This document shows positions 3,208 to 24,527 of a DNA stretch of 64,000 nucleotides, piece by piece. The stretch is from Candidatus Foliamicus sp. (GTDB taxonomy: Bacteria; Pseudomonadota; Gammaproteobacteria; Steroidobacterales; Foliamicaceae): positions 2,649,184 to 2,713,183 of the forward strand of contig OZ250178.1 in assembly GCA_965238055.1 (NCBI GenBank), in the 5' to 3' direction. Both the position numbers and the translations under genes were made by a program. Each line of letters starts with the position of its first letter. The first letter of the stretch is position 1. The notes beneath the pieces were generated by a model. The model did no database searches. It was given only the letters and a program-made list of their open reading frames with translations, and was not told the DNA's origin.

Positions 3208-3242
3208 GGTATGCTTGGCATATGTCGCTCGCATTCAGCAAT

Positions 3243-3436
3243 TGAATCGCGCCGGGTTTACCGGAGGCTCCGGATCTTGAGAGGATTGGGGCATGAACAA
3301 AGCGAAGCGTTATTCCCCGGAGGTCAGGGAAAGAGCCGTACGGCTGCTGTTTGAACACGAGAAGGACTACCGGTCGCGGATGCCGTCGTTTATCCGCACG
3401 CACGTGATGGAGCACTTCCCGGACCGCGTCCTCTAG
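3243..3436 (+). mobile_element. IS3-family (IS51 group) left end plus truncated orfA (3293-3436)
   Basis: TGAATCGCGCCGGGTTTACCGGAGG end followed by MNKAKRYSPEVRERAVRLLFEHEKDYRSR, an IS629/IS6110-like OrfA N-terminus; the sequence then diverges and stops. Confidence 0.8.
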
Positions 3437-3530
3437 ACGCGAAGCGCCGCGCCTAAGCGGGTGGGACCGCGAACTGGGTCAAGATCCCGGGTGCCCGGGC
3501 CGGCATGCAGCAACACAGCAACAGGCGTCC

Positions 3531-11406: not shown

Positions 11407-12177
11407 TCAGAAGCGGTCCTTCCGCCGCCGTACCTCGGCGAACACAGCCACGTCGTCTGCATCCTCCATCCCCAGTTGCACGCGTATCTCCTTGCTGTCC
11501 GGCCTTAAGAACGGGTTCGTACGCCGTTCCTGGTGCATGGTAGTGGGCACTGTCGGCGCCCCATCGGCGCGCAACTGCGCCACCTCTTCCATCCGTTTAA
11601 TCAGCGCCTGATTATCAGGCTCCACGGTTAGCGCAAACTGCCCATTGTTCTGCGTGTATTCATGCGCGCAATAGATCCGCGTTCTTCCCGGCCAGTCCAT
11701 GAGCTTTTGCAGCGAGTTCCACATTTGTGCGGGTGAGCCTTCGAACAGGCGGCCGCAGCCCATGGAGAAAAGGGTGTCGCCCACGAACGCGACGTCTTCG
11801 TCGGCGAAGTAGTAGACGATGTGGCCGCTGGTGTGGCCGGGGGTGTCGAACACCTGGGCTTGGGTGTTGCCGAATTCCAGGGTCTCGCCTTCGCCGACCT
11901 GCAGATCGATGCCCGGAATGCGCGCGGCGTCCGCGCTGGGGCCGACGATGACGCAGCCGGTGCGCTCCTTCAGCAACAGGTTGCCGCCCGCGTGATCGAA
12001 ATGGTGGTGGGTGTTGAGGATGTGCGTCAGGCGCCAGCCCTTGCGCTTGAGTTCGCGGTGGATGGCGCGGGCGTCGGGCGTGTCGATGGTCGCGGTCACG
12101 CCGGACAGGCGGTCGTGGATCAGGAACCCGTAATTGTCCGACAGGCAGGGGAACTGGTGGATCTGGAGCAGCGCCAT
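11407..12177 (-). CDS. gloB: Hydroxyacylglutathione hydrolase (glyoxalase II)
   Basis: THHHFDHAGG, TPGHTSGH, GDTLFSMGCGR, YCAHEYT, TNPFLR. Confidence 0.95.
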   Translation of the reverse strand: MALLQIHQFPCLSDNYGFLIHDRLSGVTATIDTPDARAIHRELKRKGWRLTHILNTHHHFDHAGGNLLLKERTGCVIVGPSADAARIPGIDLQVGEGETLEFGNTQAQVFDTPGHTSGHIVYYFADEDVAFVGDTLFSMGCGRLFEGSPAQMWNSLQKLMDWPGRTRIYCAHEYTQNNGQFALTVEPDNQALIKRMEEVAQLRADGAPTVPTTMHQERRTNPFLRPDSKEIRVQLGMEDADDVAVFAEVRRRKDRF

Positions 12178-12192
12178 GGTGTGCGTCTGGCT

Positions 12193-12717
12193 CTAGGTTT
12201 CCTTGAGCCGCGGCCTGAGCTCGGCCAGGTTGCAGGGGCGGGTGCGGGTGTCGAGCTGCGCTTCGATGAGCTTGTCCCAGCCGGTGGCTACGGCGTTGCG
12301 TGAGCCGGGCAGGCAGAAGATGAAAACGCCGTTGGCGAGCCCCGCCAGGCAGCGTGATTGAAGCGTGGAGGTGCCGATGTCCTCGTAGGACAGCACCCGG
12401 AACATCTCGCCGAAGCCTTCGATCTGCTTGTCGAGCAGGGGTTCGACCGCCTCGGGCGTGCCGTCGCGGCCGGTCAGGCCGGTGCCGCCGGTGGTGATGA
12501 TGGCGTCCACCTCTTCCTCGGCAATCCACTCGGATACGACCGCGCGGATTCGATAGCGGTGGTCGGGTTCAAGCCGACGCTGATAGAGCTTGTGGCCGGT
12601 CTGCTCGATCCGCTCCGCGAGCAGCGCGCCGGAGTCGTCGGTCTCCAGCGTGCGGCTGTCGGAGATCGTCAGCACGGCGATGTTCAGCGGCAGGAAGGTG
12701 TTTGGCTTTTTGGCCAA
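12193..12717 (-). CDS. moaB: Molybdenum cofactor biosynthesis protein B
   Basis: IAVLTISDSR, TTGGTGLTGRDGTPEA, FCLPGS, RPCN. Confidence 0.95.
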   Translation of the reverse strand: MAKKPNTFLPLNIAVLTISDSRTLETDDSGALLAERIEQTGHKLYQRRLEPDHRYRIRAVVSEWIAEEEVDAIITTGGTGLTGRDGTPEAVEPLLDKQIEGFGEMFRVLSYEDIGTSTLQSRCLAGLANGVFIFCLPGSRNAVATGWDKLIEAQLDTRTRPCNLAELRPRLKET

Positions 12718-12760
12718 GGTGGTGCGCTCCGGGGTTAGGGTGATTTTAGATCAGTAATTC

Positions 12761-12814
12761 GAGGGCGGGACGCCCTCGCTCCCAGGGAGGGCGGGACGCT
12801 CTTGTTCCCGGGGG
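12761..12814. repeat. REP-like cluster (2 copies)
   Basis: GAGGGCGGGACGCCCTCGCTCCCAGG and a degenerate copy. Confidence 0.8.
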
Positions 12815-12830
12815 AGTGCGATCTCGATTA

Positions 12831-14318
12831 TTAAGGATCCAAGTACTCGCCGTTTTCCCAGTGCTCCTCGATGACCGTCCCGTCTGCAAGGCGAATGGTC
12901 CAGGCTCCGTGTCGTTTTCCGAGCACAAGGGGACCTTCATGCACTTCACCGTCCTTGAATCTAAATACCCAGTGTCCGTACTGCTTGTCATTGGCATATT
13001 GCCCCTGGGCCACAGCGCCATCCGCATGGGTTTCAACCCAGAATCCTGATTTCTTGCCATCTGACAAAGGCCCTTTCGCGACGCTTCCATCCGGAGAGGT
13101 TTCCGTCCATTGGCCGTATTCCCGGCCATCAAGAAACAAGCCCTTAAGCACGGTTCCATCCGGCGACTTTCTGGTCCATTCGGCGTGCCTTTTGTTTAGC
13201 ACGAATTAGCCTTGCCAAACGTCTCCATCCGGATAGCGATCGACCCATTCTCCCAGCCGCATGCCGTACTCGTAGGGACCTTCCGCCACGCTTCCGTCGC
13301 TATATCTTGTGATCCACTTCCCGCTTTTGCGCCCCTCTCGGTAGGATCCTTGCCCAACGGCGCCGTCGCTGAGCGTTTCCGTCCAGTCTCCTTCCCTGAC
13401 GTCATCGGCATATTTGCCCCTGAGAACTGTGCCGTTCATCGAGGAAAATACCCATTCTCCGTGCATTTTCCCGTCCACAAATGGTCCTTTTGCATTAGTC
13501 CTGCCAGCAAAGTGCAGCACGTAGTCTCCGGTCAATCCGCTGTCCGGAAACGACCTTCCCCCAAATTCTTCATCCGACCCGCTCAGCCCCCAAGCCTCCA
13601 GTCGCATGTTCTCCACGAAGAGAACTTCTTCCATCCGGCCGCCAACGCCCCTGACTTCGCGCTTGCCGTGCCTGTAGCCGCCAAGGAAACGCCCTTGTTG
13701 AACCAACTCGATTTCCGTGCTTTGGACTGGAACTGCTTCACCATCCGGTCCCCGCTCTACTGTGTCTCCGTATCTCCTTCCAAGCAGGTAACGAACTTCA
13801 GTAATCGATCCACTGGAGTAACGCGTAGTCAGGATTCCGTGCCGAAACCCGTCAAGATAGGCCTGTTCCTCCACCCGATCGTTCCGAAATCGTGCAATCC
13901 AGGGTCCTTGTCTCCCGCCGTTGACGATCAATCCTTCTTCGGTGCTCTCAGGAACAGAAAAGCCGAGAAAGGACCAGCCGTACCGAATCCGGGCTACCCA
14001 TACTCCCGTCCCCTCGGCCAGGCCTTCGGAGCAAGCGCCGTCCCAGAAGATCTCTCGATTGGGCCGGTCCAACCAGATCCATACGAAACATCCCGGCTGG
14101 TTCATGACTTCCGCCCAGCAATGTTCCCCAAAGCGTGCCTGCGTGCAAAGTTCCCCAAAGCTGACCGCCTCCGGTAGCGGAAGCGATCTTTGGTCTTTTC
14201 GGGGCGCGTCAGGACGGACTGCGCCGGTTTCGATCAGGAGCAGAAAAATTCCCAGCGCGCCTAGAACCAGGAGAAACACCCCCAGCACCGCTTTCCATCG
14301 AGTGTGAATTCTTGTCAC
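12831..14318 (-). pseudogene. Membrane-anchored MORN-variant repeat protein split by an in-frame TAA (13206-13208)
   Basis: ORFs 13206-14318 and 12831-13202 share a frame. DGDVWQG*FVLNKRHAEWTRK aligns with NGTVGDGSFIKGKKHGEWTRK of the intact paralog. Confidence 0.75.
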
Positions 14319-14413
14319 GGCCTACCGCCCGGTGCGCCTACGCTCGTTGCTTGTTCCATGACCTGGCCGTTTGATTCTATGACGGGCGGCAATCTTGCTG
14401 TTCGGTTGGTGTC

Positions 14414-14546
14414 GAGGGCGGGACGCCCTCGTTCCCAGGGAGGGCGGGACGCCCTCGTTCCCAGGGGAGGGCGGGACGCCCTCGTTCCCAGGGGAGGGCG
14501 GGACGCCCTCGTTCCCAGGGGAGGGCGGGACGCCCTCGTTCCCGGG
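14414..14546. repeat. Five tandem REP-like units (26-27 bp, no spacers)
   Basis: GAGGGCGGGACGCCCTCGTTCCCAGGG repeated five times head to tail. Confidence 0.95.
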
Positions 14547-15971
14547 TCATTCCGAGGATGTGGTAACCAAAACGCCGTTTTTCCATTGTTCCTGGATTGT
14601 ATTGCCGTCTTCTTCGCGCTTGAGCCAGGTTCCGTGTCGCTTTCCGTCTGCGTAAGGACCTTTGGCAACGCGCCCGTCCGGATAGGTTACGGTCCAGTCT
14701 TCATACTCCTGGCCGTCTGCGTACATGCCCTGAATTACGGTTCCGTTCGCGAGCTTCCGGGTCCATTCCCCGTGCTTCTTGCCTTTAATGAACGAACCAT
14801 CCCCAACTGTGCCGTTCGGATAGTGAACGACCCATACGCCGTGCCGTTGCCTGTGCTGGTAGGGACCTTTCGCCACGACCCCGTTACTGTATCTTGTGGT
14901 CCAGTCGCCGGTCCTTAGGCCTCTCCTGTAGGCGCCCTTCCGAACCATGTTGTTCGCATGTCGAAATTCCCAGTTGCCGTGCCTTGCAGCGCCCCGGTAG
15001 GTCCCTTTCGCTACGGTGCCGTTAGGGTGGGTTTCGGTCCATTCCCCTGCCCTGCTGTTGTCTTTGTACCTCCCTCTGGCAACAATGCCGTGGGGCAAGC
15101 GAAAGGTCCATTCCCCCTGCATGTTCCCTTCCACAATGGGTCCTTCCGCTTCCGTGCCGTCGTCAAGGCGCAACGCGTAGTCTCCTGTCAGGCCGCTGTC
15201 CGTAAACGGTGTTTCGTTCAGAAGCGTTTCTGACCCGCTCAAGCCCCAAGCCTCTAGTTCAAATCCGTCGACACGGACAACTTCCTGGCTTTTGCCGTCG
15301 CGGCCCCGATCTCGCCATATACCGTGCCTGTCCGTATTGACGGGTACTTGTTCGGCTGTCTTGATCGGATTACGGCGTGGTTCCCGCGGTTTGCCGTCCG
15401 GTCCGCGCAAGACCGTTTTCCCGTACGCCTTGCCCAGCAGGTAACGGGTTTCTGTCGTATCCCCATCAGCGTAGCGTGTAATTCGAACCCCGTGCCGTAG
15501 CCCGTCCAGATAGGATTGTTCCTCCACATCCCCGTCAGGAAACCGGGAACTCCAGATTCCATGTTTTTTGCCTTGCACCAACATTCCTTCTGTGGTGCTC
15601 AGGGTCCTGAGCCTGCCGTAAATGGCAAGACTGCGCCCCGACACGTCAATCCACTTGCCGGTTCCCTCTCCAAGGCCTTCGGAACATTCGCCATCCCAGC
15701 CGACCAAACGACCCTGCTGATAATCTTCGATCCAGACGAAACACCCCGGCTGGTTCAATACTTCCATCCAGCAGGATTTGTACCAGTGATCGTCCGTGCA
15801 AATGTCCGCCTTACCGAATACCTCGGGGAGCGAAAGCGATCTCGAATCTTCGTATGGTGCGTTGAGCTGAACTACGCCGATGACGTTAAGAAGCAGATAG
15901 GCCACCAACGCGCTCACTACCAGGAGCGGTACTCCCAGCGCCACTTTCCATAGAGCGTGAATTTTTTCCAC
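14547..15971 (-). CDS. Membrane-anchored MORN-variant (YwqK-like) repeat protein
   Basis: N-terminal TM helix; CWMEVLNQPGC..WDGECSEGLGEG; many G.Y..G.R.G.W...Y.DG repeats. Confidence 0.85.
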   Translation of the reverse strand: MEKIHALWKVALGVPLLVVSALVAYLLLNVIGVVQLNAPYEDSRSLSLPEVFGKADICTDDHWYKSCWMEVLNQPGCFVWIEDYQQGRLVGWDGECSEGLGEGTGKWIDVSGRSLAIYGRLRTLSTTEGMLVQGKKHGIWSSRFPDGDVEEQSYLDGLRHGVRITRYADGDTTETRYLLGKAYGKTVLRGPDGKPREPRRNPIKTAEQVPVNTDRHGIWRDRGRDGKSQEVVRVDGFELEAWGLSGSETLLNETPFTDSGLTGDYALRLDDGTEAEGPIVEGNMQGEWTFRLPHGIVARGRYKDNSRAGEWTETHPNGTVAKGTYRGAARHGNWEFRHANNMVRKGAYRRGLRTGDWTTRYSNGVVAKGPYQHRQRHGVWVVHYPNGTVGDGSFIKGKKHGEWTRKLANGTVIQGMYADGQEYEDWTVTYPDGRVAKGPYADGKRHGTWLKREEDGNTIQEQWKNGVLVTTSSE

Positions 15972-16073
15972 GGCCTACCGCTCAGTACGTATGCGCTCGT
16001 TCTTCGTTGCAGGAATCTACGATTTGATTCTACGCGATGCGTTCAGCTTCCTGAACGCGCCGGTCCAGGGCAT

Positions 16074-16133
16074 CCCCGGGAGCGAGGGCGTCCCGCCCTC
16101 GCCGAGGGCCGGGAGGCCCTCGTTCCCACGGGG
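16074..16133. repeat. REP/REPIN-like doublet
   Basis: GGGAGCGAGGGCGTCCCGCCCTC plus an inverted degenerate copy. Confidence 0.8.
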
Positions 16134-16206
16134 CTGCGCTCATATACTTGGATTCAGCGGAGATTGGGTGGGAATGGTAATAAAACCGGAAATTGTTTTG
16201 CCCTAT

Positions 16207-17445
16207 ATGCGCAATGGTTGGACCGGCGGTCAATACAGCGTATTCCGCCTTCTGCTGGGGGCATACCTGTTCGTGCATTTCGTGCGGCTCACGCCGTGGG
16301 CCTGGGAGCTGTTTTCATCCCAAGGTGTGATCCCGGGCGCTTGGCGAAGCCCCTTATTGGGCGTGTTTGCGAACTTTTTCGGCCTTGACGATGCGTTTGG
16401 ACTTCTGATTGCTGTCACAATTATTGCCGCGGCGGCCTCGCTCCTCTTGGTCGTCGGGCTTGCCGACAAATGGGCGGCCTTCTACCTGTGTTTCGCCCTG
16501 GCCTGCCTGTATGGAGGCGATCCGTTCATCGCCAAACAAAGCCTGCACTACCTGGGCTGGATGCTGTTTGTGCATTTGCTAATACCAAAGGCGCCGTACG
16601 GCTCATTGGCGGCGCGCGGACGCCCTGATCCCGGAGGGGGTTGGCGGTTCCCGCTTGTGCTATACGCCGTTACTTTGTTGATATTCACGCTGAGCTATTT
16701 GTTCAGCAGTTACTACCTGATTGTCGGTTCGTCTTGGTGGCCGGGCCAAGCCCTGGGTCATGTATTTGCCAATCCGCTACCGCCGGATTACTTTGCTCAC
16801 GGCTTTCTGGCCAGCGCGCCTTCCGGTGCCCTGGTCATTCTTGGTTTTGGCATTCAATGCATCCTGTTTTTTGTCATGCCGTTCTGGTTCTTTCGCCGCG
16901 TTGTTCACCCGGCATTGTGGAGCGTGGCCTTCGGTTTGCAATTGGCCTTCGCTTTCCTGTCTGATTTCGCCGATCCGGCGATCACGATGCTGCTTTTTCA
17001 CGTGATCGTGTTCCATCCCGCTTGGATCAAGAGCCGCAGGCTGCCGGAGCACGCGACGTTGTTCTACGACGGCACAAGTGTGCTTTGCCATCGCCTGGTT
17101 CGCTTTGTGCTGGCGGAGGACATTGCCGATCGCATCACTTTTTCCCCGCTGTACAGCGAGTATTTTGAGACGGCGCTTTCGGCGGAAGAAAGAAGCGGCC
17201 TCCAGGTCGGTATTGTGCTGAAGAGCGACGACGGCCTCTTGCTCGAGACGGACGCGGTGATCCGGATCCTCAAGATTCTGGGCGGAATGTGGATGTTGCG
17301 GGGCCTGGTTCTGAGTGCGTTTCCGCGGAGCTGGAGGAACGCCGGTTACCAATTCGTGGGTGGGCGCCGGTATCGTATATTTGGGCGCGCCGAAACCGCG
17401 TATCCGAACGTGGCGGCGCATCTGCGGTCCCGCTTCAAGGAATAA
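16207..17445 (+). CDS. HTTM/VKGC-like membrane domain + DCC1-like (DUF393) thiol-disulfide oxidoreductase fusion, copy A (degenerate motifs)
   Basis: MRNGWTGGQYSVFR; multiple TM helices; C-terminal LFYDGTSVLC...RYRIFG. Start taken at ATG 16207 by homology to copy B; the ORF-track extension is REP-derived. Confidence 0.8.
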   Translation: MRNGWTGGQYSVFRLLLGAYLFVHFVRLTPWAWELFSSQGVIPGAWRSPLLGVFANFFGLDDAFGLLIAVTIIAAAASLLLVVGLADKWAAFYLCFALACLYGGDPFIAKQSLHYLGWMLFVHLLIPKAPYGSLAARGRPDPGGGWRFPLVLYAVTLLIFTLSYLFSSYYLIVGSSWWPGQALGHVFANPLPPDYFAHGFLASAPSGALVILGFGIQCILFFVMPFWFFRRVVHPALWSVAFGLQLAFAFLSDFADPAITMLLFHVIVFHPAWIKSRRLPEHATLFYDGTSVLCHRLVRFVLAEDIADRITFSPLYSEYFETALSAEERSGLQVGIVLKSDDGLLLETDAVIRILKILGGMWMLRGLVLSAFPRSWRNAGYQFVGGRRYRIFGRAETAYPNVAAHLRSRFKE

Positions 17446-17470
17446 CGCACGGAAATCAGAGGGCTACGGC

Positions 17471-18229
17471 TTGCAGATTGTCGCCATCGTTGCAGGGGCT
17501 GCGCTCGTGATGTTCGTGGTCGAATTGCTCGCCCCGGGACGTCCCTGGAAGAAGGTAACCGGGTGGTGGTGGCGCGCGGTGCTGTTGAACGGGGTGCAGA
17601 TCGCGGCCGTGTTCGTGTCGGGGGTGACCTGGGACCGGTGGTTCGATGGCTGGGCGCTGCTGCAGCTGGAAGACTACCTGGGGTTTTCCGGTGGGGCGGT
17701 CGCGGGCTACGCCGTCATTACGTTCATCTATTACTGGTGGCACCGGTGGCGTCACGACGTGCCTTTGCTGTGGCGCGTGTTCCATCAGGTGCACCATAGT
17801 CCGCGGCGGATCGAACTGGTCACCAGTTTCTACAAGCACCCGGCGGAGATTTTCGTCAACAGTGTGCTTTCGAGCGCGATCGTCTATATCTTGTGCGGTC
17901 TTAGTCCAGCGGCCGCGTCGCTGTCCGTGCTGCTTACCGGCCTGGGCGAGCTGTTCTATCACTGGAACGTCAACACGCCGCGCTGGATCGGGTTCTTCTT
18001 CCAACGCCCGGAGAGTCATTGCATTCATCACAAGACGGATTGGCATCGGCAGAATTTCTCCGACCTGCCGATCTGGGACATGGCGTTTGGGACCTTTTAC
18101 AATCCCTACCGGTTCGAATCGACGTGCGGGTTTGAGGGAGATTACGAATTGCGCTTGGGCGAGATGCTGAAAGGGGTTGATCTGTATGAATCGACTGCGG
18201 GCGCCGGGGTCAGTGGAGAAAAGACGTGA
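17471..18229 (+). CDS. Sterol desaturase / fatty acid hydroxylase family protein
   Basis: His boxes YWWHRWRH, FHQVHH, FYHWN and HCIHH; the TTG start at 17471 is inferred. Confidence 0.85.
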   Translation: MQIVAIVAGAALVMFVVELLAPGRPWKKVTGWWWRAVLLNGVQIAAVFVSGVTWDRWFDGWALLQLEDYLGFSGGAVAGYAVITFIYYWWHRWRHDVPLLWRVFHQVHHSPRRIELVTSFYKHPAEIFVNSVLSSAIVYILCGLSPAAASLSVLLTGLGELFYHWNVNTPRWIGFFFQRPESHCIHHKTDWHRQNFSDLPIWDMAFGTFYNPYRFESTCGFEGDYELRLGEMLKGVDLYESTAGAGVSGEKT

Positions 18230-18738
18230 GGGCGCGTGAATGGATCGCTGCCGGCGTCCTGGTGGCGATCGGAACGGCGCAGATGTTCGGCGAAGTCCTT
18301 GGCATTCCGGCCCTGAAAGGCGTAGGCGCCGCTACCGGCAGCTCGCCGACACCCAAGGTGTTCACTGCCCATGAGGGATTCGAGACCTATTCATCGGAGT
18401 TCTTCCTGGCCTGGACGGACAGCACGGGCGAAGGGCACAAACTGAAGCTGACTCCCGCCAACTACCGGGGTGTTCGTGGCCCGTACAACCGGCGCAACGC
18501 CTATGGCGCTGCCATTTCCTATGCGCCGGTGCTGCATTCAAGCGAAGCCACGCGTCCGATGCTCGAAAGCGCCTTGCGATTTACGTTCTGCAGCCCTTCC
18601 TCCACGGTCCTGGAAGAACTGGGCGTGGACGCGGAAGACATCTCCAGTCCGGTCTTGGTGACCCTGGAGCCGCGCCAGGACCTGCCCGCCGATCATGGCT
18701 GGAAACTTGAGTTTGTGGTTGACTGCGATGCGCAATAG
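18226..18738 (+). CDS. Hypothetical protein with N-terminal membrane anchor (operon partner of HTTM-DCC1)
   Basis: GTGA overlap with the desaturase; PTPKVF...ETYSS and RGPYNRRNAYGAA segments; overlaps the start of the next gene. Confidence 0.7.
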   Translation: MRAREWIAAGVLVAIGTAQMFGEVLGIPALKGVGAATGSSPTPKVFTAHEGFETYSSEFFLAWTDSTGEGHKLKLTPANYRGVRGPYNRRNAYGAAISYAPVLHSSEATRPMLESALRFTFCSPSSTVLEELGVDAEDISSPVLVTLEPRQDLPADHGWKLEFVVDCDAQ

Positions 18739-19963
18739 CTGGACCGGCGGCCAGTACAGCATCTTCCGGGTGCTGCTCGGGATCTACCTGTTGGTGCATT
18801 TCGTGCACCTGATTCCATGGGCGGTGGAATTGTTCTCGTCCGAGGGGATGCTCCCGGAGGCGGAGCAAAGTCCCTTGTTGTGGCTGTTCCCGAATATTTT
18901 CATCCTTGACGATGCGCCCATTCTTGTGCTCGGCGTCATCATCGGCGCAGCTGCAGCTTCGGTGTATTTTGTTGTCGGAATCGCCGACCGGTTCGCGGCC
19001 TTGTTCATGTGGTTTGCGCTCGCGTGCCTGTACGGGCGCAATCCGCTCATCGCCAATCCCAGCCTGCCGTATGTGGGCTGGATGCTGCTGGCTCACCTGT
19101 TCATTCCCAAGGCGCCCTACGGTTCCGTTCCGGCGCGTGGACGGCCGGACCCCGGCGGCGGCTGGCGCTTTCCACCTCTGATCTTCCTTGCGGCGTGGAT
19201 CGTGCTGGCTCTGAGTTACAGCTATAGCGGATATTCGAAACTGCTCAGCCCGTCGTGGGTGTCAGGGGACGCGGTGGGTTACGTGCTGGAGAACCCGCTG
19301 GCTCGCGACTACTTTCTGCGTGATTTCTTCTTGTGGCTACCGCCGATCCTGGTGCAGATCATTACCTGGTTCATTGTCTTTGTCGAGTTGCTGTTCGCGC
19401 CGGGGGTGCTTTTCCGGCGCGCCCGTCCCTGGCTGTGGAGCGCAATGCTCTTCGTGCAGTTTGGCTTCGCCTTCCTGCTGAACTTTGCCGATTTGACCAT
19501 CGCGATGCTGCTGTTTCACTTGATCACGTTCGATCCGGGCTGGATCAGGGACCGCAAACTACCGGATAAGGCGACGCTGTTCTACGACGGCACCTGCGCG
19601 CTCTGCCATGGGATCGTCCGCCTGGTGCTGGCTGAGGATACGAAGGGCCGCATTCGCTTCTCACCGCTGCAAAGCGAGTATTTCGAATCGCAATTGACGC
19701 CCCTGGAGCGGGCCGGCCTCCCCGACAGCATCGTGCTGATGAGCGACGACGGTTTGCTGCTGGAGACCGACGCCACCATCCGGATATTGAAGATGCTGGG
19801 CGGATTGTGGCTGCTCCTGGCGCTCATCATTAGCGTTTACCCGGCGCGCATGCGGCAGATCGGCTACCACTTCGTGGGCGACCGCCGCTACCGATTGTTC
19901 GGCCGCACCTCCACCGCCTGTCCCATCGTGCCCCCGCGCCTCCGCCCCCGCTTCAAGCAATAA
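18728..19963 (+). CDS. HTTM/VKGC-like + DCC1-like fusion, copy B (intact motifs)
   Basis: MRNSWTGGQYSIFR; YSYSGYSKL..SW..G; YDGTCALC (DxxCxxC); C-terminal TACP. Confidence 0.85.
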   Translation: MRNSWTGGQYSIFRVLLGIYLLVHFVHLIPWAVELFSSEGMLPEAEQSPLLWLFPNIFILDDAPILVLGVIIGAAAASVYFVVGIADRFAALFMWFALACLYGRNPLIANPSLPYVGWMLLAHLFIPKAPYGSVPARGRPDPGGGWRFPPLIFLAAWIVLALSYSYSGYSKLLSPSWVSGDAVGYVLENPLARDYFLRDFFLWLPPILVQIITWFIVFVELLFAPGVLFRRARPWLWSAMLFVQFGFAFLLNFADLTIAMLLFHLITFDPGWIRDRKLPDKATLFYDGTCALCHGIVRLVLAEDTKGRIRFSPLQSEYFESQLTPLERAGLPDSIVLMSDDGLLLETDATIRILKMLGGLWLLLALIISVYPARMRQIGYHFVGDRRYRLFGRTSTACPIVPPRLRPRFKQ

Positions 19964-19976
19964 CCCCCGCCGGGAT

Positions 19977-20098
19977 GGAGGCGTCCCCCTGGGAACGAGG
20001 GCGTCCCGCCCTCGAAACGATCCCCTCGCAGGAACGAGGGCGTCCCGCCCTCGTCGAGAGCGAGACGCTCTCGCACCCAGGTAGGGCGTCCCTCCCTC
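19977..20098. repeat. REP-like cluster (about 4 copies)
   Basis: GGGAACGAGGGCGTCCCGCCCTC and GAGAGCGAGACGCTCTC variants. Confidence 0.85.
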
Positions 20099-20158
20099 GC
20101 TTGTATGCGTATTACATATTGGTTATATTGAACGCAGTACTTTCGAGAGGAACGCTTC

Positions 20159-20425
20159 ATGCCAGGTAGGACGACGATGACAGTTCGGCTCAGTGGAACA
20201 CTGCGTGACTTCGTATCCGCCAATGTGGGGGAGAACGGTTCCTACGAAAACGTTAGCGAATACGTTCGCGACTTGATTCGACGCGACAAGGAGCGGTCTG
20301 AGCGAGCGGCTTTCGAGCGTCTGAAGGCCGAACTGAAACGGGCCTTTGCCGCGCCGGATGACGCCTACCATCCACTCTCCGCGTCTGAAGTCATCGCCAG
20401 GAACAAGGATCGCTCCAGCGCATGA
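20159..20425 (+). CDS. parD: ParD-like ribbon-helix-helix antitoxin
   Basis: MTVRLSGTLRDFV...YENVSEYVRDLIRRD; ATGA overlap with the toxin. Confidence 0.85.
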   Translation: MPGRTTMTVRLSGTLRDFVSANVGENGSYENVSEYVRDLIRRDKERSERAAFERLKAELKRAFAAPDDAYHPLSASEVIARNKDRSSA

Positions 20426-20736
20426 CCCCCGTTCGCGTCCAGGGATCGGCCGCTCTCCGAATCGACGAAATCTACCGATTCTCTCGGGACCGCTGGGGGG
20501 AAGCCCAGGCGGATGCTTATGTCCGGGGGCTCTTCGAAGCGTTCGAGAGTATTGCGGCTGGTGGAGTCGCCTCGCGACCGATTCCGGCCGAGTTCGAGGT
20601 GGATGGCTTCTTCTTTCGCTATGAGAAGCACTTCGTCTATTGGAAGAGGTTGGCCAATGGGGACATGGGTATCGTGACCGTCCTACACGAACGCATGCAT
20701 CAGGTCGGCCGACTTCTGGAGGAATTCGGGGAATAG
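20422..20736 (+). CDS. parE: RelE/ParE family toxin
   Basis: IDEIYRFSRDRWGEAQADAY...FFRYEKHFVYW...VLHERM. Confidence 0.85.
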   Translation: MTPVRVQGSAALRIDEIYRFSRDRWGEAQADAYVRGLFEAFESIAAGGVASRPIPAEFEVDGFFFRYEKHFVYWKRLANGDMGIVTVLHERMHQVGRLLEEFGE

Positions 20737-20752
20737 CAGGCCGTTCTTGATC

Positions 20753-20818
20753 GAGGGCGGGACGCCCTCGTTCCCAGGGGGACGCCCTCGTTCCCAGGGG
20801 GACGCCCTCGTTCCCAGG
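20753..20818. repeat. REP-like cluster with a 20-bp tandem unit x3
   Basis: GACGCCCTCGTTCCCAGG repeated three times at 20-bp spacing. Confidence 0.9.
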
Positions 20819-20839
20819 TACTCAGAAGATCTTTAGCGG

Positions 20840-21742
20840 CTAGCGGCTTTTTGTACGTGCGTCGTTTGCTCTAGTGCTTTCGCCATCGAGCGTTTCTTCC
20901 TTTGTGGCCAGGTCTTTCTGACCATCCTTAATCAACCAGACTTCTCTAGCGTGCCCTCCAAAGAAGATTCCGGCATCGGAATCTTGTCCCTCCTGGGTCT
21001 GCCTAAAGTGGTCGAGAATCATTCGGGTATGTTCCGGCTCATACGCCATGAATGACTCACTCGCCAATCGCAGTATCAGCGGATCGGTTTGGGTGCTGGT
21101 AACCATATGCATGCCTTCCCGCTCAAGCATCGCCAGTCCATTTCCGGCTTCCATCAGCCGCTTAGAGTGGAGTTGCCTGTCCTCCTCGGACTCGTGCACT
21201 TCATATGTGAGCAACCGGCCGTAATCTTCCTGCGCCTCCCGGTACTCGTCCGTCAGGCGCCACGTGTTGTAAACGGCATCGTTGTAGTAGCCGCCCGTAA
21301 TGACGGCATAGTTGTTTCGCTTCATTCGCAGATTGAGCTCACCCTGTTCCAGGATGAAGTTGGTGCCCTTGTTGATCGGCTCGATGGGGGTTCCGTCGCG
21401 ACTTACAGCTTCAAGGACAGCAAAATAAACCGTTTGAGGCTGTTCCACCGCCATTTCCAGGCGAAAGTGCCCGTCCGGACCTATCGGCGCTTGAGCTATG
21501 GCTCCTGGGGGCAATGCTCCGGACGGAGGCTCTTCGCCCGGGGTTGGCGAACCGGGCGCTACCTTCTTCTCCTCCCGGCTTCCGATGAGCGCAGGATCGA
21601 ACACCGTGAATATGCCGTTGTCATACACGACCGACGCGTCACCTTTGAGCACCATGACTGATGCTTCGTCGGCATGGGCCGGTGATGCGGCCAGCAGCAA
21701 GAGAGTCAGGCCAAATATCCAATTGCGCATGTGGATCCTCAC
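20840..21742 (-). pseudogene. C-terminally truncated paralog of the adjacent TlpA-like protein (thioredoxin domain missing)
   Basis: Shares the signal peptide, AIAQAPIGPDG.FRLE, NFILE.GEL and ETLDGE, then stops where the paralog continues into WASWCGPC. Confidence 0.6.
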
Positions 21743-21771
21743 TCGACCAATAGGTCAATCCCGCGCGGGCT

Positions 21772-23025
21772 CTAGTCGAGAAGCTCTTCCAGTTTCTCGT
21801 CAAGCTTGTGTCGCCGGAGGTCTCTTGCAACGATCTCTTTCGTCTCGGAGTTCACCAGGAAGTTTCTGGGTACACCTGTAGTCGATGTGTTGTAAGCCAC
21901 CGGTGCTTCCGCTTTCGTTCCCATCCCGAGATCAAACCAAGGCATGTTTTCCTCCGCCGAGGCTTCTTCCCAGTCCTCGCGCTCGTCGTCGATAGTGAAC
22001 GACACAATCTCGAAGCCCTTGTCGCGGAAACGCGCGTAGGCTTGCTTCATGTGGGGTATCTCCACCCGGCAGGGGCCGCACCACGACGCCCAGAACTCCA
22101 CCAGCACGTAGCGGCTGTCGTCGCGCACGTCAGCCGTGTGCACTTTCTCACCATCGAGCGTCTCGCCCGTGAAGTCCAGAGCGGTCTCGCCGACTGTCAG
22201 CAGCCTGCGCTTGTCCGCGTTTGCCGCAGCGGCTTCCATCGCGGCGAGACGCTTAACGACCCATGGGTCGTCGGGCGTCAGTTCCGCAAGTCCACGTACC
22301 GCGTCGGCCACCCACGGCCCAACTGCCCAAGCGGTCTCGATTACCAACCGTCTTACTAACGGGTCAGAATGGGTCAACGCGACTTTGGACCTGCCTTGAC
22401 TCTCAAGCTGCATGACTTTCTGAAAGGCCTCCCCGCTGGCATCGAGACGGCGTCGCTTGGCTTGCTCAGGCTCGTCTTCCACGGGCGTGCGCAGCCGGTC
22501 GTAATCCGATCGGGCCGACTTGTGGTCGTCTGACAGACGCCAAAAATTGAACACCGCGTCGTTGTAGACACCGCCTGTAATGACAGAGTAATCGCTGCTT
22601 ATCATTCGCAGCTTGAGCTCGCCTGGCTCAAGGATGAAGTTGTTTCCCATCTTGACCGGCCACAAGGTCGTTCCGGCGGCGGTTTTTGCGTTGACGACGG
22701 AGAAAAAGGCCATTCGGGGCTTGTTTACGCCGATTTCCAGGCGAAATGTGCCGTCGGGACCAATCGGTGCCTGGGCAATGGCGCCCGAGGCTTCGACCGG
22801 TGCCATTTCGCCCGGCTTCGCCGTTTTCTTCCATACCTCCAATCTGGCCAGGTCCCAGGCGCGGCTCCGGTCGAAAACCGTGAAGTCGCCATTGTCGTAC
22901 GGCGCGGCTGTAGTGCCTTCGAGCACCATCACCGACTCTTCTTCGGCGAAGGCCGGCGATGCGGCGAGGGTAAGAAGGATTAGCGGAAACATCCAGCCGC
23001 GCATGTAGTGCTTCTCGTGTCTCAT
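21772..23025 (-). CDS. Exported TlpA/ResA-family disulfide reductase with N-terminal extension
   Basis: VLVEFWASWCGPC and GVPRNFLV; signal peptide; AGGA RBS before ATG 23025. Confidence 0.85.
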   Translation of the reverse strand: MRHEKHYMRGWMFPLILLTLAASPAFAEEESVMVLEGTTAAPYDNGDFTVFDRSRAWDLARLEVWKKTAKPGEMAPVEASGAIAQAPIGPDGTFRLEIGVNKPRMAFFSVVNAKTAAGTTLWPVKMGNNFILEPGELKLRMISSDYSVITGGVYNDAVFNFWRLSDDHKSARSDYDRLRTPVEDEPEQAKRRRLDASGEAFQKVMQLESQGRSKVALTHSDPLVRRLVIETAWAVGPWVADAVRGLAELTPDDPWVVKRLAAMEAAAANADKRRLLTVGETALDFTGETLDGEKVHTADVRDDSRYVLVEFWASWCGPCRVEIPHMKQAYARFRDKGFEIVSFTIDDEREDWEEASAEENMPWFDLGMGTKAEAPVAYNTSTTGVPRNFLVNSETKEIVARDLRRHKLDEKLEELLD

Positions 23026-23100
23026 TGGGTGATCCTGCTTTGTTAAATGGCTTGCAATGACCCTACCACATTCATTGATGCGCCACGCTGCAAGTTCTCC

Positions 23101-23158
23101 CTGGGGAAAGAGGGTATCCCGCCCTCGCCGAGAGCGAGACGCTCTCGCTCCCAGGGGG
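23101..23158. repeat. REP/REPIN-like doublet
   Basis: GAGGGTATCCCGCCCTC GCC GAGAGCGAGACGCTCTCGCTCCCAGG. Confidence 0.8.
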
Positions 23159-23195
23159 GTGGGCGCGCGGGGCCTACGCTGGTAGGCTACGGCCC

Positions 23196-24527
23196 ATGGA
23201 TACAAGCAAAAGTGATATGACGGAACTGCCGGATTTGCAGGCGTATTGGATGCCCTTTACGGCGAATCGTCAGTTCAAGCGCGAACCTCGCTTCGTGACC
23301 GGAGCCGAGGGTATGTACTACACGACGCACAACGGTCGGCGGGTGCTCGATGGCGTGTCGGGGCTGTGGTGCTGCAATGCGGGGCATTGTCATCCGCACA
23401 TCGTTGCAGGCATTCAGGAGCAGGCGGCGAAGCTGGACTATTACACGGCCTTTCAGATGGGTTATCCGCGCACTTTCGAGCTGGCTAATCGGCTGGCCGA
23501 GATGGCGCCGGACGGCTTGTCGAGCGTGTTCTTCACCAATTCGGGTTCGGAGGCGGTGGATACGGCGCTGAAGATCGCGATTGCCTGGCACCGGGTGCGG
23601 GGCGAGGGTCAGCGGGTGCGGTTTATCGGGCGTGAGCGCGGTTATCACGGTGTCGGTTTCGGCGGCATTTCGGTAGGCGGGATTGCGTCGAATCGCAAGC
23701 TGTTCGGGGCCTTGTTGGCAGGCGTGGACCACCTGCGTCACACGCAGGATCTGGAGCATCAGGCGTGGAGCCGGGGCCAGCCCCAGTGGGGTGGTCATCT
23801 GGCCGACGAGCTGGAGCGGATCGTGGAACTGCACGACGCCTCGACCATCGCGGCCGTGATTGTGGAGCCTATCGCCTGTTCGGGCGGCATTCTGATTCCG
23901 CCGAAGGGGTATCTGGAGCGGATTCGGGAGATATGCGACAAGCACGGGCTCTTGCTGATCTTCGACGAGGTCATTACCGGTTTTGGGCGCACCGGAGAAG
24001 CGTTTGCATCGCAGACCTTCGGTGTGACGCCGGACATCATCACGATGGCGAAAGGGCTGACCAGCGGCTCGGTACCCATGGGCGCGGTGATGGTGCGCCA
24101 GGATATCTACGACGACTTCATGCACGGTCCGGAGCAGCTGATCGAGTTCGCGCACGGATATACGTATTCGGGCCATCCTTTGGCGGTGGCGGCAGCGCAC
24201 GCGGCGCTGGACGTTTATCAGGACGAATGCCTGTTCGAGCGCGCCAAGGAGACGGGAAAGCTGCTGGGCGACGCGATTCAGGCGCTGAAAGGCAAGCCGT
24301 ACGTCATCGACGTGCGCGACTACGGAATGCTCGGCGCGGTGGAGCTGGAGCCGATCCCCGGCGAACCCACCGAACGCGCCCAACAAGCGTTCCGCGCCTG
24401 CTACGAAAAGGGTCTGCTAACCCGCACAACCGGCGAAACGATGGCGCTGTGCCCCGCGCTCATCGCCAGCGAGTCCCACATTGCCGAACTCGTAGAAAAA
24501 CTGGGCGCCGCCCTCGACACTCTTTAA
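23196..24527 (+). CDS. Class III omega-amino acid:pyruvate aminotransferase (beta-alanine type)
   Basis: YWMPFTANRQF, DGVSGLWC, NSGSEAVDTALK, DEVITGFGR and PDIITMAKG. Confidence 0.9.
   Translation: MDTSKSDMTELPDLQAYWMPFTANRQFKREPRFVTGAEGMYYTTHNGRRVLDGVSGLWCCNAGHCHPHIVAGIQEQAAKLDYYTAFQMGYPRTFELANRLAEMAPDGLSSVFFTNSGSEAVDTALKIAIAWHRVRGEGQRVRFIGRERGYHGVGFGGISVGGIASNRKLFGALLAGVDHLRHTQDLEHQAWSRGQPQWGGHLADELERIVELHDASTIAAVIVEPIACSGGILIPPKGYLERIREICDKHGLLLIFDEVITGFGRTGEAFASQTFGVTPDIITMAKGLTSGSVPMGAVMVRQDIYDDFMHGPEQLIEFAHGYTYSGHPLAVAAAHAALDVYQDECLFERAKETGKLLGDAIQALKGKPYVIDVRDYGMLGAVELEPIPGEPTERAQQAFRACYEKGLLTRTTGETMALCPALIASESHIAELVEKLGAALDTL

What the first reader, a model, noticed from the sequence alone, without database searches (positions are those of the whole stretch)
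16207..19963. Uncharacterised four-gene membrane redox operon: 2x HTTM(VKGC-like)-DCC1, a diiron hydroxylase and a small partner
Seen: four co-oriented, closely spaced or overlapping genes: HTTM-DCC1(A), a His-box sterol-desaturase-family enzyme, a 170-aa anchored protein, and HTTM-DCC1(B). Established: HTTM is the membrane core of vitamin K-dependent carboxylase and of Bacillus SdpB, which works with the small partner SdpA; DCC1 domains have a thioredoxin-like DxxCxxC; His-box enzymes are O2-dependent lipid hydroxylases or desaturases. Inference: a quinone/thiol-coupled membrane machine that modifies a lipid or an exported peptide, with the 170-aa protein as an SdpA analogue. I know of no functional description, and this is my best candidate for a new system in the window.
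Basis: partly seen in the sequence, partly recalled or inferred. Interest (0 to 1): 0.75.

Follow-up and report, generated by a model that had tools for sequence, protein, structure and literature searches.

The report
Bacterial carboxylase-like membrane oxygenase gene trio
Three of these four genes form an untested membrane enzyme set found across more than twelve bacterial phyla: an iron-dependent lipid hydroxylase, a small protein of unknown type, and a relative of the membrane core of the blood-clotting enzyme vitamin K carboxylase.

Summary
The four co-oriented genes are real and sit at the stated coordinates. A is 16207-17445, B 17471-18229, C 18226-18738 and D 18728-19963.

The domain calls hold:
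- D and A have an HTTM (GGCX-like) membrane domain fused to a DCC1-like thioredoxin-fold domain.
- B is a FA_hydroxylase with intact His boxes.
- C is a single-pass anchored protein with no Pfam family or PDB fold match.

The conserved unit is three genes, not four. B-C-D lies in this order in 61 of 70 informative loci from more than 12 phyla, and no other neighbour is conserved.

Gene fusions tie the parts together. B-C fusion proteins exist in bacteria. The D membrane domain is 33% identical to the "vitamin K epoxidase" domain of a Yasminevirus epoxidase-desaturase fusion protein. The DCC1 domain is optional, because two-gene versions without it exist.

D keeps the GGCX catalytic Lys, Trp and acidic residue in 81-82 of 82 orthologues. 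A is a lineage-specific paralogue that has lost Lys171, Glu220 and two of three conserved Cys.

Most likely this is a GGCX-like quinol oxygenase, capped by C, working with a diiron lipid hydroxylase or desaturase. The substrate and the chemistry are unknown. No paper found describes the bacterial trio, but two 2026 papers describe sister modules computationally.

The parts
16207..17445 (+). Gene A: HTTM-like membrane domain + DCC1-like domain, a degenerate paralogue of D
   Evidence: DCC1-like 50.7 bits. 57% identical to D. Substitutions at D-family invariant sites: N110K, K171L (codon 16717), W214F, E220L (16864), C290S (17077; motif DGTSVLC), C398Y (17401). The same residues occur in independent assembly L084. 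dN/dS is 0.29-0.35 against 0.16 for D.
17471..18229 (+). Gene B: FA_hydroxylase / sterol-desaturase-superfamily diiron membrane enzyme, 252 aa, TTG start
   Evidence: PF04116 96.5 bits. Start and length match the L001 orthologue. OlsE model scores only 43.6 bits against a cut-off of 475. No solved relative by sequence.
17741..17755 (+). B His box 1, HRWRH (H91, H95)
   Evidence: Invariant in 20 orthologues; coordinates.
17783..17797 (+). B His box 2, HQVHH (H105, H108, H109)
   Evidence: Invariant; coordinates.
18017..18031 (+). B His box 3, HCIHH (H183, H186, H187); H164 (17960-17962) is also invariant
18226..18738 (+). Gene C: 170-aa single-pass anchored protein with no Pfam family or PDB fold match, predicted periplasmic domain
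   Evidence: No Pfam or NCBIfam hit. AF2 model pLDDT 83 with no PDB fold match. 571 clusters at 50% identity in public data. Fused to the C-terminus of B in P0289, P0294 and P0304.
18232..18300 (+). C transmembrane helix (res 3-25) with conserved polar residues: Q19 and G22 invariant, D/E23 in at least 90% of sequences
18343..18396 (+). C motif SP(A/T)PKVFTAHxGFETYSS
   Evidence: Invariant P41, P43, V45, F46, T47, G51, F52, E53, T54.
18478..18534 (+). C motif GPYNRRNAYGAAxSYAPVL
   Evidence: Invariant G85, P86, Y87, R89, R90, N91, Y93, G94, A95, Y99, P101, L103. Conserved Cys at C122 (18589-18591) and C167 (18724-18726).
18728..19963 (+). Gene D: HTTM (GGCX-like) membrane domain + DCC1-like domain, 411 aa
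18728..19573 (+). D HTTM domain (res 1-282)
   Evidence: Foldseek: top 15 PDB hits are all human GGCX, E about 1e-4, probability 1.00, 270-284 alignment columns. Yasminevirus A0A5K0UBG6: E 3.7e-17, 33% identity, rmsd 2.5. hhalign to the Ralstonia HTTM protein: probability 95.2%, 253 columns.
19238..19258 (+). D motif K171-LLSPS-W177, the counterpart of GGCX Lys218 and Trp223
   Evidence: K and W present in 82/82 orthologues. Aligned to K and W of a bona fide HTTM protein and to GGCX K218 and W223.
19385..19387 (+). D Glu220, the counterpart of GGCX Asp263
   Evidence: Present in 81/82 orthologues; alignments.
19577..19906 (+). D DCC1-like thioredoxin-fold domain (res 284-393); C290-A-L-C293 at 19595-19606; C398 at 19919-19921
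   Evidence: PF04134 68.4 bits. D287, C290, C293 and C398 present in 82/82 orthologues.
16084..16100 (.). REP-like palindrome GAGGGCGTCCCGCCCTC upstream of A
   Evidence: 20 copies in the window; 0.07 expected.
19997..20098 (.). Three REP-like palindromes downstream of D (19997, 20036, 20082) that mark the end of the operon

Best explanation
B, C and D encode one inner-membrane oxygenase complex.

D's N-terminal HTTM domain is a true but divergent homologue of the membrane core of vitamin K-dependent carboxylase. It keeps the Lys, stacking Trp and acidic residue that GGCX uses to deprotonate a quinol so that it reacts with O2. This site should lie at the periplasmic end of TM5.

C is anchored by one helix with its N-terminus inside, and places a conserved domain of unknown fold in the periplasm. 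There it most likely caps or completes that site, playing the part of the GGCX lumenal domain or of DUF5819 in Firmicutes.

B is a His-box diiron enzyme that hydroxylates or desaturates a membrane lipid at the cytoplasmic face. It is physically tied to C and D.

D's C-terminal DCC1 domain, with CxxC plus a third conserved Cys, is predicted to be cytoplasmic. It is an optional thiol-based accessory, most plausibly re-reducing the oxidised quinone or quinone epoxide. VKOR is proposed to do that job in the giant-virus version.

Net proposal: O2- and quinol-dependent modification of a common membrane lipid by two coupled active sites.

Shown here: domain identities, conservation of the catalytic residues, three-gene conservation, the gene fusions, and the optional status of DCC1.
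Inferred: membrane topology, the physical complex, quinol use, and a lipid substrate.
Unknown: the substrate and the product.

Gene A is a lineage-specific paralogue with a dead HTTM site and, in this organism, a broken CxxC. It is still under purifying selection, so it is probably a non-catalytic or repurposed subunit.
For: Identity of D:
- Foldseek hits to GGCX.
- 33% identity and E 3.7e-17 to Yasminevirus VKED A0A5K0UBG6, which PMC13486548 describes as a GGCX-like epoxidase fused to a sterol desaturase.
- Orthologue P0426 is 51% identical and passes Pfam HTTM at 42.8 bits.
- hhalign probability 95% to a bona fide HTTM protein, with the K, W, G, W and E motifs aligned.
- K171 82/82, W177 82/82, E220 81/82. 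These map to GGCX K218, W223 and D263, whose roles are described in PMC12647623.
- Three short helices follow K171, like the GGCX cap (PMC12647623).

B: all His boxes are invariant.

Coupling of the parts:
- B-C-D order in 61 of 70 loci over more than 12 phyla.
- No other conserved neighbour.
- Overlapping stop and start codons.
- B-C fusion proteins in at least 3 clusters, each followed by an overlapping HTTM gene.
- The HTTM-desaturase fusion in Yasminevirus (PMC13486548).

Topology:
- The positive-inside rule favours 8 TM helices with N-terminus inside, the loops 124-149 and RRAR cytoplasmic, and DCC1 cytoplasmic.
- The B-C fusion forces C's N-terminus to the side of B's C-terminus.
- C has two conserved Cys, which fits a periplasmic domain.

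Parallel case: AF3 modelling of a DUF5819 protein with an HTTM-DCC1 protein gave a GGCX-like complex (bioRxiv 10.64898/2026.08.19.745780).
Against: - There are no experimental data for any member.
- The HTTM site (periplasmic side) and the diiron site (cytoplasmic side) would be on opposite faces of the membrane, so direct chemical coupling is not obvious.
- Carriers include lineages that, to my knowledge, make only ubiquinone (Erythrobacteraceae, Nevskiales, Oleiphilaceae) as well as menaquinone users. A strictly vitamin-K-type cofactor therefore cannot be general.
- C has no PDB fold match, including to the GGCX lumenal domain. Its capping role rests on position, predicted topology and analogy.
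- Similarity of D to GGCX itself is not significant at sequence level (z 0.9).
- DCC1 is absent from many members, so any model that needs it is incomplete.
- The topology is predicted, not measured.
Confidence: 0.42

Rival explanations
1. Electron-supply model. D is the dedicated reductase system of B. Electrons from cytoplasmic thiols (DCC1) and/or membrane quinol held by the HTTM domain are passed to B's diiron centre, which lacks a cytochrome b5, ferredoxin or rubredoxin partner. The HTTM domain would do no base or epoxidase chemistry on a second substrate. This is close to what PMC13486548 proposes for the viral fusion protein.
For: No classical electron donor is encoded in or near the trio. 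Both DCC1 and the His boxes are predicted to be cytoplasmic. The HTTM-desaturase fusion exists in Yasminevirus. One DCC1-less locus has a Pyr_redox_2 flavoprotein directly downstream.
Against: The invariant Lys, Trp and Glu and the obligatory periplasmic partner C point to chemistry on the outer face, which is not needed for electron delivery. DCC1 is dispensable. No redox cofactor path across the membrane is evident.
Confidence: 0.2
2. Quinone or cofactor tailoring. The substrate is the respiratory quinone or another isoprenoid cofactor itself. B hydroxylates it and the D-C pair oxygenates or epoxidises it, giving a modified quinone. No separate lipid would be involved.
For: HTTM domains bind a prenylated quinol in a membrane pocket (PMC12647623). 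The trio is self-contained and sits in variable genomic contexts, as expected for tailoring a universal metabolite.
Against: No quinone-biosynthesis genes are linked to the trio. FA_hydroxylase members, to my knowledge, usually act on acyl, sterol, carotenoid or sphingoid substrates rather than on quinone rings.
Confidence: 0.15
3. Peptide or protein maturation like SdpAB/SdpC or true gamma-carboxylation. D with C modifies an exported peptide or protein.
For: The known HTTM enzymes act on peptides or peptide-like intermediates: GGCX, MloH and SdpB (established knowledge, and the bioRxiv preprint cited above).
Against: No precursor or substrate gene is conserved next to the trio in 79 loci. D lacks the GGCX lumenal clamp regions, since only about 280 residues align. 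C does not hit any SdpA or DUF5819 model in Pfam. The obligatory partner is a lipid-type diiron enzyme.
Confidence: 0.08
4. Thiol-redox homeostasis or disulfide-bond machinery of the DsbB, VKOR or DoxX type, with B as an unrelated passenger.
For: D has a CxxC domain. There is a weak DoxX similarity (E 0.44-0.6). Thioredoxin-like genes lie nearby in this genome.
Against: DCC1 is predicted to be cytoplasmic and is optional. The invariant residues of the membrane domain are Lys, Trp and Glu, not Cys. B and C are more constant partners than DCC1. The nearby thioredoxin-like genes are not conserved neighbours.
Confidence: 0.05

Closest known systems
Giant-virus vitamin K redox module: VKOR + gamma-carboxylase-like epoxidase (VKE) fused or adjacent to a sterol desaturase (VKED); PMC13486548, 2026
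   Same: The HTTM-type epoxidase-like domain is paired with a His-box sterol-desaturase-family enzyme plus a thiol oxidoreductase. D's membrane domain is the best viral structural match to Yasminevirus VKED A0A5K0UBG6: E 3.7e-17, 33% identity, rmsd 2.5 A over 287 columns. That is far closer than to human GGCX (15-18% identity). The catalytic Lys is retained and the GGCX lumenal Glu-binding region is absent in both.
   Different: The bacterial version has separate genes in the order B-C-D. It has an obligatory extra protein C that is not reported for the viruses. Its thiol partner is a fused, predicted cytoplasmic DCC1 domain rather than a separate VKOR. The viral function is also only hypothesised. 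I could not obtain the viral sequence to test whether its desaturase part is B-like or whether it contains a C-like segment.
DUF5819 protein + HTTM-DCC1 fusion protein of Firmicutes (Melghirimyces; AF3 model, bioRxiv 10.64898/2026.08.19.745780)
   Same: The large subunit has the same two-domain architecture (HTTM then DCC1). An adjacent small protein has an N-terminal TM helix plus a roughly 150-residue domain. A conserved Lys and Trp six residues apart (Lys189 and Trp195 there; K171 and W177 here) lie by the predicted menaquinol pocket.
   Different: C does not match Pfam DUF5819 in any of 37 members at E up to 1. No FA_hydroxylase partner is reported for that pair.
[quoted passage not shown]
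   Same: The fold of the transmembrane core matches. Counterparts exist for Lys218, Trp223, Asp263, Asn159 and Arg68.
   Different: D has no lumenal clamp domains, no propeptide or Glu-binding region and no C-terminal domain. Sequence similarity is not significant. Carboxylase activity is not implied.
Split small-protein / HTTM / DUF393 operon on the Ralstonia solanacearum megaplasmid (L089)
   Same: A small upstream protein, a bona fide HTTM protein (62.7 bits) and a DCC1-like protein are consecutive genes. The HTTM protein aligns to D's family at hhalign probability 95%.
   Different: There is no FA_hydroxylase. HTTM and DCC1 are separate genes. The small protein is unrelated to C (hhalign probability 0.35%). 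It is also uncharacterised.
Bacillus subtilis SdpA/SdpB
   Same: An HTTM membrane protein works with a small partner (established knowledge).
   Different: C matches no Pfam model at all, so it does not match any SdpA model there. SdpAB serve a linked peptide gene (sdpC), and no such gene is present here.

Membership tests
HTTM domain (Pfam PF05090) | The window's own sequence reaches the Pfam gathering score | tested here: not met
   A and D give no HTTM hit at E up to 10 for the N-domains. Only 3 of 43 family members hit, at E 1.5 or worse.
HTTM domain (Pfam PF05090) | Homology to bona fide HTTM proteins, via orthologues and profile comparison | tested here: met
   P0426 is 51% identical to D over its full length and scores 42.8 bits against a cut-off of 27.7 across the profile positions 10-259 of 259. 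P0402, P0436 and P0488 also pass the cut-off. hhalign of A1 against the Ralstonia HTTM protein (Pfam 62.7 bits): probability 95.2%, E 2.5e-8, 253 columns.
HTTM domain (Pfam PF05090) | GGCX-like transmembrane fold | tested here: met
   The model has pLDDT 91. The top 15 Foldseek PDB hits are all GGCX, with probability 1.00 and query-normalised TM-score 0.44-0.50 over 270-284 columns.
HTTM domain (Pfam PF05090) | Catalytic Lys with stacking Trp and a nearby acidic residue (GGCX K218, W223, D263) | tested here: met
   In D: K171 82/82, W177 82/82, E220 81/82, aligned. In gene A this is NOT met: K171L and E220L.
[quoted passage not shown] | Lumenal clamp domains and the Glu/propeptide-binding region (residues about 374-418 and beyond) | tested here: not met
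   D's membrane domain ends at about residue 282 and is followed by DCC1. Only 270-284 columns align to GGCX chains of 624-698 residues. C has no fold match to GGCX.
[quoted passage not shown] | Quinol epoxidase and carboxylase activity | not testable with these tools
   Needs biochemistry.
DCC1-like thiol-disulfide oxidoreductase (PF04134) | Pfam model above the gathering score | tested here: met
   A 50.7 bits and D 68.4 bits against a cut-off of 27.8.
DCC1-like thiol-disulfide oxidoreductase (PF04134) | DxxCxxC motif | tested here: met
   D has D287-G-T-C290-A-L-C293, with D, C and C present in 82/82 orthologues. Gene A has DGTSVLC, so the first Cys is lost: not met for A.
Fatty acid hydroxylase / sterol desaturase superfamily (PF04116) | Pfam model above the gathering score, and HX3H, HX2HH, HX2HH His boxes | tested here: met
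   96.5 bits against a cut-off of 31. HRWRH, HQVHH and HCIHH are invariant in 20 orthologues.
Ornithine lipid hydroxylase OlsE (NCBIfam NF052566) | Equivalog score cut-off | tested here: not met
   43.6 bits against a cut-off of 475.
SdpA / DUF5819 small partners of HTTM proteins | Sequence match of C to the Pfam models | tested here: not met
   Neither family was hit by the window's C or by any of 37 C-family members at E up to 1. A fold-level comparison with DUF5819 could not be made because no DUF5819 structure or sequence was at hand.
Giant-virus VKOR-VKE-desaturase module (PMC13486548) | HTTM-type epoxidase domain homologous to viral VKE(D) | tested here: met
   A0A5K0UBG6: E 3.7e-17, 33% identity.
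Giant-virus VKOR-VKE-desaturase module (PMC13486548) | Adjacent or fused sterol-desaturase-family enzyme | tested here: met
   B lies one small gene (C, 170 aa) upstream of D in 61 of 70 loci.
Giant-virus VKOR-VKE-desaturase module (PMC13486548) | Adjacent VKOR | tested here: not met
   No further conserved neighbour in 79 loci. The window neighbours scanned show no VKOR. DCC1 occupies the place of the thiol partner.

The most novel reading that the evidence does not exclude
The B-C-D trio would be a widespread bacterial enzyme system that uses GGCX-type chemistry on a membrane lipid instead of a protein. In that chemistry, quinol plus O2 gives a strong base and a quinone epoxide. The trio would work together with a diiron hydroxylase and with a new periplasmic cap protein (C), and it could use ubiquinol as well as menaquinol. 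It would also be the bacterial relative, and perhaps the source, of the giant-virus epoxidase-desaturase fusion, rather than that fusion being a truncated host carboxylase.
Probability: 0.25. Interest if true: 0.85.

Novelty: new variant of a known kind. Interest (0 to 1): 0.66.

Why it matters
HTTM enzymes carry out one of the most unusual reactions in biology: oxygenation of a quinol to make a base strong enough to remove an unactivated C-H proton. Until now this has been tied to protein carboxylation in animals and to one natural-product pathway.

A three-gene unit conserved across more than twelve bacterial phyla joins this domain, catalytic residues intact, to a lipid-type diiron oxygenase and a protein with no known relatives. 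That points to a common and unstudied membrane-lipid or quinone modification in aerobic bacteria.

It also gives a tractable bacterial model for the epoxidase-desaturase modules just reported in giant viruses. It supplies a natural inactive paralogue (A) and natural variants without DCC1 for dissecting which parts are needed.

Tried and rejected
- Direct Pfam and NCBIfam scans of the N-domains gave no HTTM hit.
- HMM search of the D family against PDB sequences gave nothing.
- hhalign of the D profile against the single GGCX sequence aligned only the FRxLFG motif. An unanchored global alignment to GGCX was not significant (z 0.9), although it lined up the catalytic positions.
- C against PDB by Foldseek gave only noise, E above 1. 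C against Pfam for 37 members gave no DUF5819 or SdpA hit. C against the Ralstonia small partner was unrelated.
- B against PDB sequences gave nothing.
- Three scans of IMG/VR viral contigs with the D, C and B profiles found no relatives. I therefore could not obtain a giant-virus sequence to test for B-like or C-like segments. The PNAS supplement is not held.
- Plasmid search found only distant HTTM or DCC proteins, and the trio itself was not found on any plasmid.
- Four literature searches found no study of the bacterial trio.
- Rfam found no RNA element in 12000-24000. Promoter and terminator scans were at background level.
- Rejected: that A's odd residues are sequencing errors, because they are identical in an independent assembly.
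- Rejected: that the hydrophobic stretch 349-375 of D is a ninth TM helix. AF2 shows three short helices of 11-12 residues, part of the DCC1 domain. This rests on prediction only.

Full report
**Observation.**
- A is 16207-17445 (412 aa).
- B is 17471-18229 (252 aa). It uses a TTG start that matches the start and length of its orthologue in L001, rather than the longer ORF from 17315.
- C is 18226-18738 (170 aa, GTG start).
- D is 18728-19963 (411 aa). Its start is fixed by 411-aa homologues at 100% coverage.

B/C overlap by 4 nt and C/D by 11 nt, and A and B are 25 nt apart. REP-like palindromes bracket the block. No Rfam element and no above-background promoter or terminator signal lies inside it. 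An independent assembly (L084) has the same four genes in the same order. The closest genomes are Candidatus Foliamicus and related gammaproteobacterial MAGs, at 81-85% identity for D.

**What D and A are.** Pfam sees only the C-terminal DCC1-like domain in both. The N-terminal 280 residues get no HTTM hit, even at E up to 10. A profile of the family also finds nothing among PDB sequences. The HTTM call is nevertheless correct, on four lines of evidence.
- The AlphaFold model of D (pLDDT 91) has human GGCX as its top 15 PDB matches. These have probability 1.00 and E about 1e-4, with 270-284 columns covering just the membrane domain.
- Full-length orthologues of D pass the Pfam HTTM cut-off. 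P0426 is 51% identical to D and scores 42.8 bits against a cut-off of 27.7, over the profile positions 10-259 of 259.
- The family profile aligns to a bona fide HTTM protein from a Ralstonia megaplasmid (Pfam 62.7 bits) with hhalign probability 95% over 253 columns.
- The best viral structural match is Yasminevirus A0A5K0UBG6, at E 3.7e-17, 33% identity and rmsd 2.5 A. PMC13486548 describes this protein as a GGCX-like vitamin K epoxidase fused to a sterol desaturase.

**Catalytic residues of D.** In GGCX, Lys218 deprotonates the quinol, Trp223 stacks on it and Asp263 sits beside it.
- D has K171-x5-W177-V-x-G180 at the end of helix 150-172, followed by three short helices, and W214-x5-E220.
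- These residues align to the K, W, G, W and E of the Ralstonia HTTM protein.
- In an unanchored global alignment they also fall on GGCX K218, W223, G226, W257 and D263. That alignment is not significant by score, and I had first verified the GGCX sequence against the PDB.
- Across 82 orthologues from more than 12 phyla, K171, W177 and G180 are present in 82/82 and E220 in 81/82.
- In the DCC1 domain D287, C290, C293 and C398 are present in 82/82.

**B and C.** B is a FA_hydroxylase-superfamily protein (96.5 bits). Its HRWRH, HQVHH and HCIHH boxes and H164 are invariant. It is not an OlsE equivalog and has no solved relative by sequence.

C has no Pfam or NCBIfam family in any of 37 members. 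Its model (pLDDT 83) has no PDB fold match. It has an N-terminal helix with conserved Q19, G22 and D/E23. It also has two very conserved motifs, SPAPKVFTAHxGFETYSS and GPYNRRNAYGAAxSYAPVL, and two conserved Cys. The family has 571 clusters at 50% identity in public data.

**Conservation and fusions.** A scan of one genome per species returned 79 loci. They come from Alpha-, Beta- and Gammaproteobacteria, Myxococcota, Bdellovibrionota, Acidobacteriota, Planctomycetota, Verrucomicrobiota, Obscuribacterales, Chlamydiae, Elusimicrobiota, Methylomirabilota and other groups.
- B and C lie directly upstream of D, in that order, in 61 of 70 loci with enough upstream sequence. Three more keep C, and one shows a deletion remnant.
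- Clustering all ORFs of these loci found no other gene shared by more than 8 loci. The trio is therefore self-contained.
- B-C fusion proteins of 407-419 aa exist in several clusters. Each is followed by an overlapping gene for an HTTM-only protein of 270-298 aa that keeps the Lys and the Glu.
- About 28 of the 120 best hits to one such protein lack DCC1. Another DCC1-less locus has separate B, C and HTTM genes.
- The constant core is thus FA_hydroxylase + C + HTTM, and DCC1 is an optional add-on.

**Topology and mechanism (inferred).** The positive-inside rule and the helix count favour D with its N-terminus inside and eight TM helices. That puts K171 at the periplasmic end of TM5, as in GGCX, where Lys218 faces the lumen, and puts DCC1 in the cytoplasm. 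The B-C fusions put C's N-terminus on the side of B's C-terminus. That side is cytoplasmic, because His boxes of this superfamily face the cytosol (established knowledge, also stated in PMC13486548). C's domain is therefore periplasmic, on the same side as the HTTM site.

I therefore propose that C caps or completes a quinol-oxygenating HTTM site, that B acts on a membrane lipid, and that DCC1 recycles the oxidised quinone with cytoplasmic thiols. The lack of any linked substrate gene argues for a common lipid or quinone rather than a peptide.

The weak points are these:
- The two active sites would lie on opposite faces of the membrane.
- Some carriers make only ubiquinone, to my knowledge.
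- There is no experiment on any member.

**Gene A.** A is a paralogue confined to this lineage. At positions that are invariant or nearly so in the D family (present in 76-82 of 82 orthologues) it carries N110K, K171L, W214F, E220L, C290S and C398Y, and these are reproduced in L084. A-like genes in L001, L003 and L005 also lack the Lys and Trp, and show no Glu at the E220 position by eye, but keep the CxxC. There they lie 2.4-5 kb from B. dN/dS is 0.29-0.35 against 0.16 for D. A is therefore maintained but relaxed, and it cannot do HTTM-type catalysis.

**Comparison with what is known.** No paper in the searched library describes the bacterial trio. Two 2026 papers describe sister systems without biochemistry on the HTTM part:
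- the giant-virus VKOR, epoxidase and desaturase module;
- an AlphaFold 3 model of a DUF5819 protein with an HTTM-DCC1 protein that resembles whole GGCX.

The trio shares the HTTM-desaturase pairing with the first and the small-partner plus HTTM-DCC1 layout with the second. It differs in three ways: it has both partners at once, C belongs to an unrelated family, and DCC1 stands where VKOR does in the viruses.

I rate it a new variant of a known kind. It is of real interest to people who work on vitamin K enzymology and bacterial membrane lipids, but its function is unproven.

Noticed in passing
window 12761-60031; tandem array at 14414-14537: A 17-nt palindrome, GAGGGCGTCCCGCCCTC, occurs 20 times in the window (0.07 expected). 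The copies seen around this locus are intergenic. They include five copies about 27 nt apart at 14414-14537, one upstream and three downstream of the operon. It behaves like a REP-type element and creates spurious ORFs with 'GRDALVPRGG' repeats.
   Followed up: partly
window 20159-20425 and 20422-20736 (+): A small overlapping gene pair sits directly downstream of D. The second gene matches ParE toxin (Pfam E 1.4e-5), so this is a likely parDE-type toxin-antitoxin pair. It is also present at the same place in L001 and L084.
   Followed up: partly
window 12831-13202, 13206-14318, 14547-15971 (-): Three neighbouring, apparently paralogous genes encode G-x-W / D-G repeat proteins with N-terminal anchors. 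Only the 474-aa one hits Pfam MORN_2. They are divergently transcribed from gene A.
   Followed up: partly
window 20840-21742 and 21772-23205 (-): Two paralogous exported proteins carry a DUF4369-like region. The longer one also has an AhpC/TSA-thioredoxin domain with WCGPC, and the shorter one lacks it. Relatives carry two or three such thioredoxin-like genes around the operon (L001, L084), but they are not conserved neighbours of the trio elsewhere.
   Followed up: partly
L001 3814-8613 versus window 16207-17470: Synteny differs among close relatives. In L001 and L003 three minus-strand genes (287 aa, a thioredoxin-like 418 aa, 465 aa) lie between the A-like gene and B. In the window and in L084, A abuts B.
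   Followed up: partly
L082, L085, L086/L087 (4-5 kb into each locus): This is a two-gene form of the system: a B-C fusion protein (407-415 aa) followed by an overlapping HTTM-only gene (270-298 aa) with no DCC1 domain. L088 has separate B, C and HTTM-only genes, followed by a Pyr_redox_2 flavoprotein.
   Followed up: partly
L089 (Ralstonia solanacearum megaplasmid CP023017.1) 2853-4794: This is a split operon: a 190-aa protein with no Pfam hit, then a bona fide HTTM protein (294 aa), then a DUF393/DCC1 protein (150 aa). It lies beside a penicillin-binding protein gene and tssA and has no FA_hydroxylase. It is a different and also uncharacterised HTTM-DCC arrangement in a cultured plant pathogen.
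   Followed up: partly
P0311 (263 aa, metagenomic): This protein joins the N-terminal two-thirds of a C-type protein directly to the end of the HTTM domain and a DCC1 domain. It looks like an internal deletion of a C-D locus, or an assembly chimera.
   Followed up: no
L054 5624-5986: This is a remnant ORF upstream of an intact D gene. It fuses the first ~46 residues of a B-type protein to the last ~59 residues of a C-type protein. It is an example of decay of the trio.
   Followed up: no
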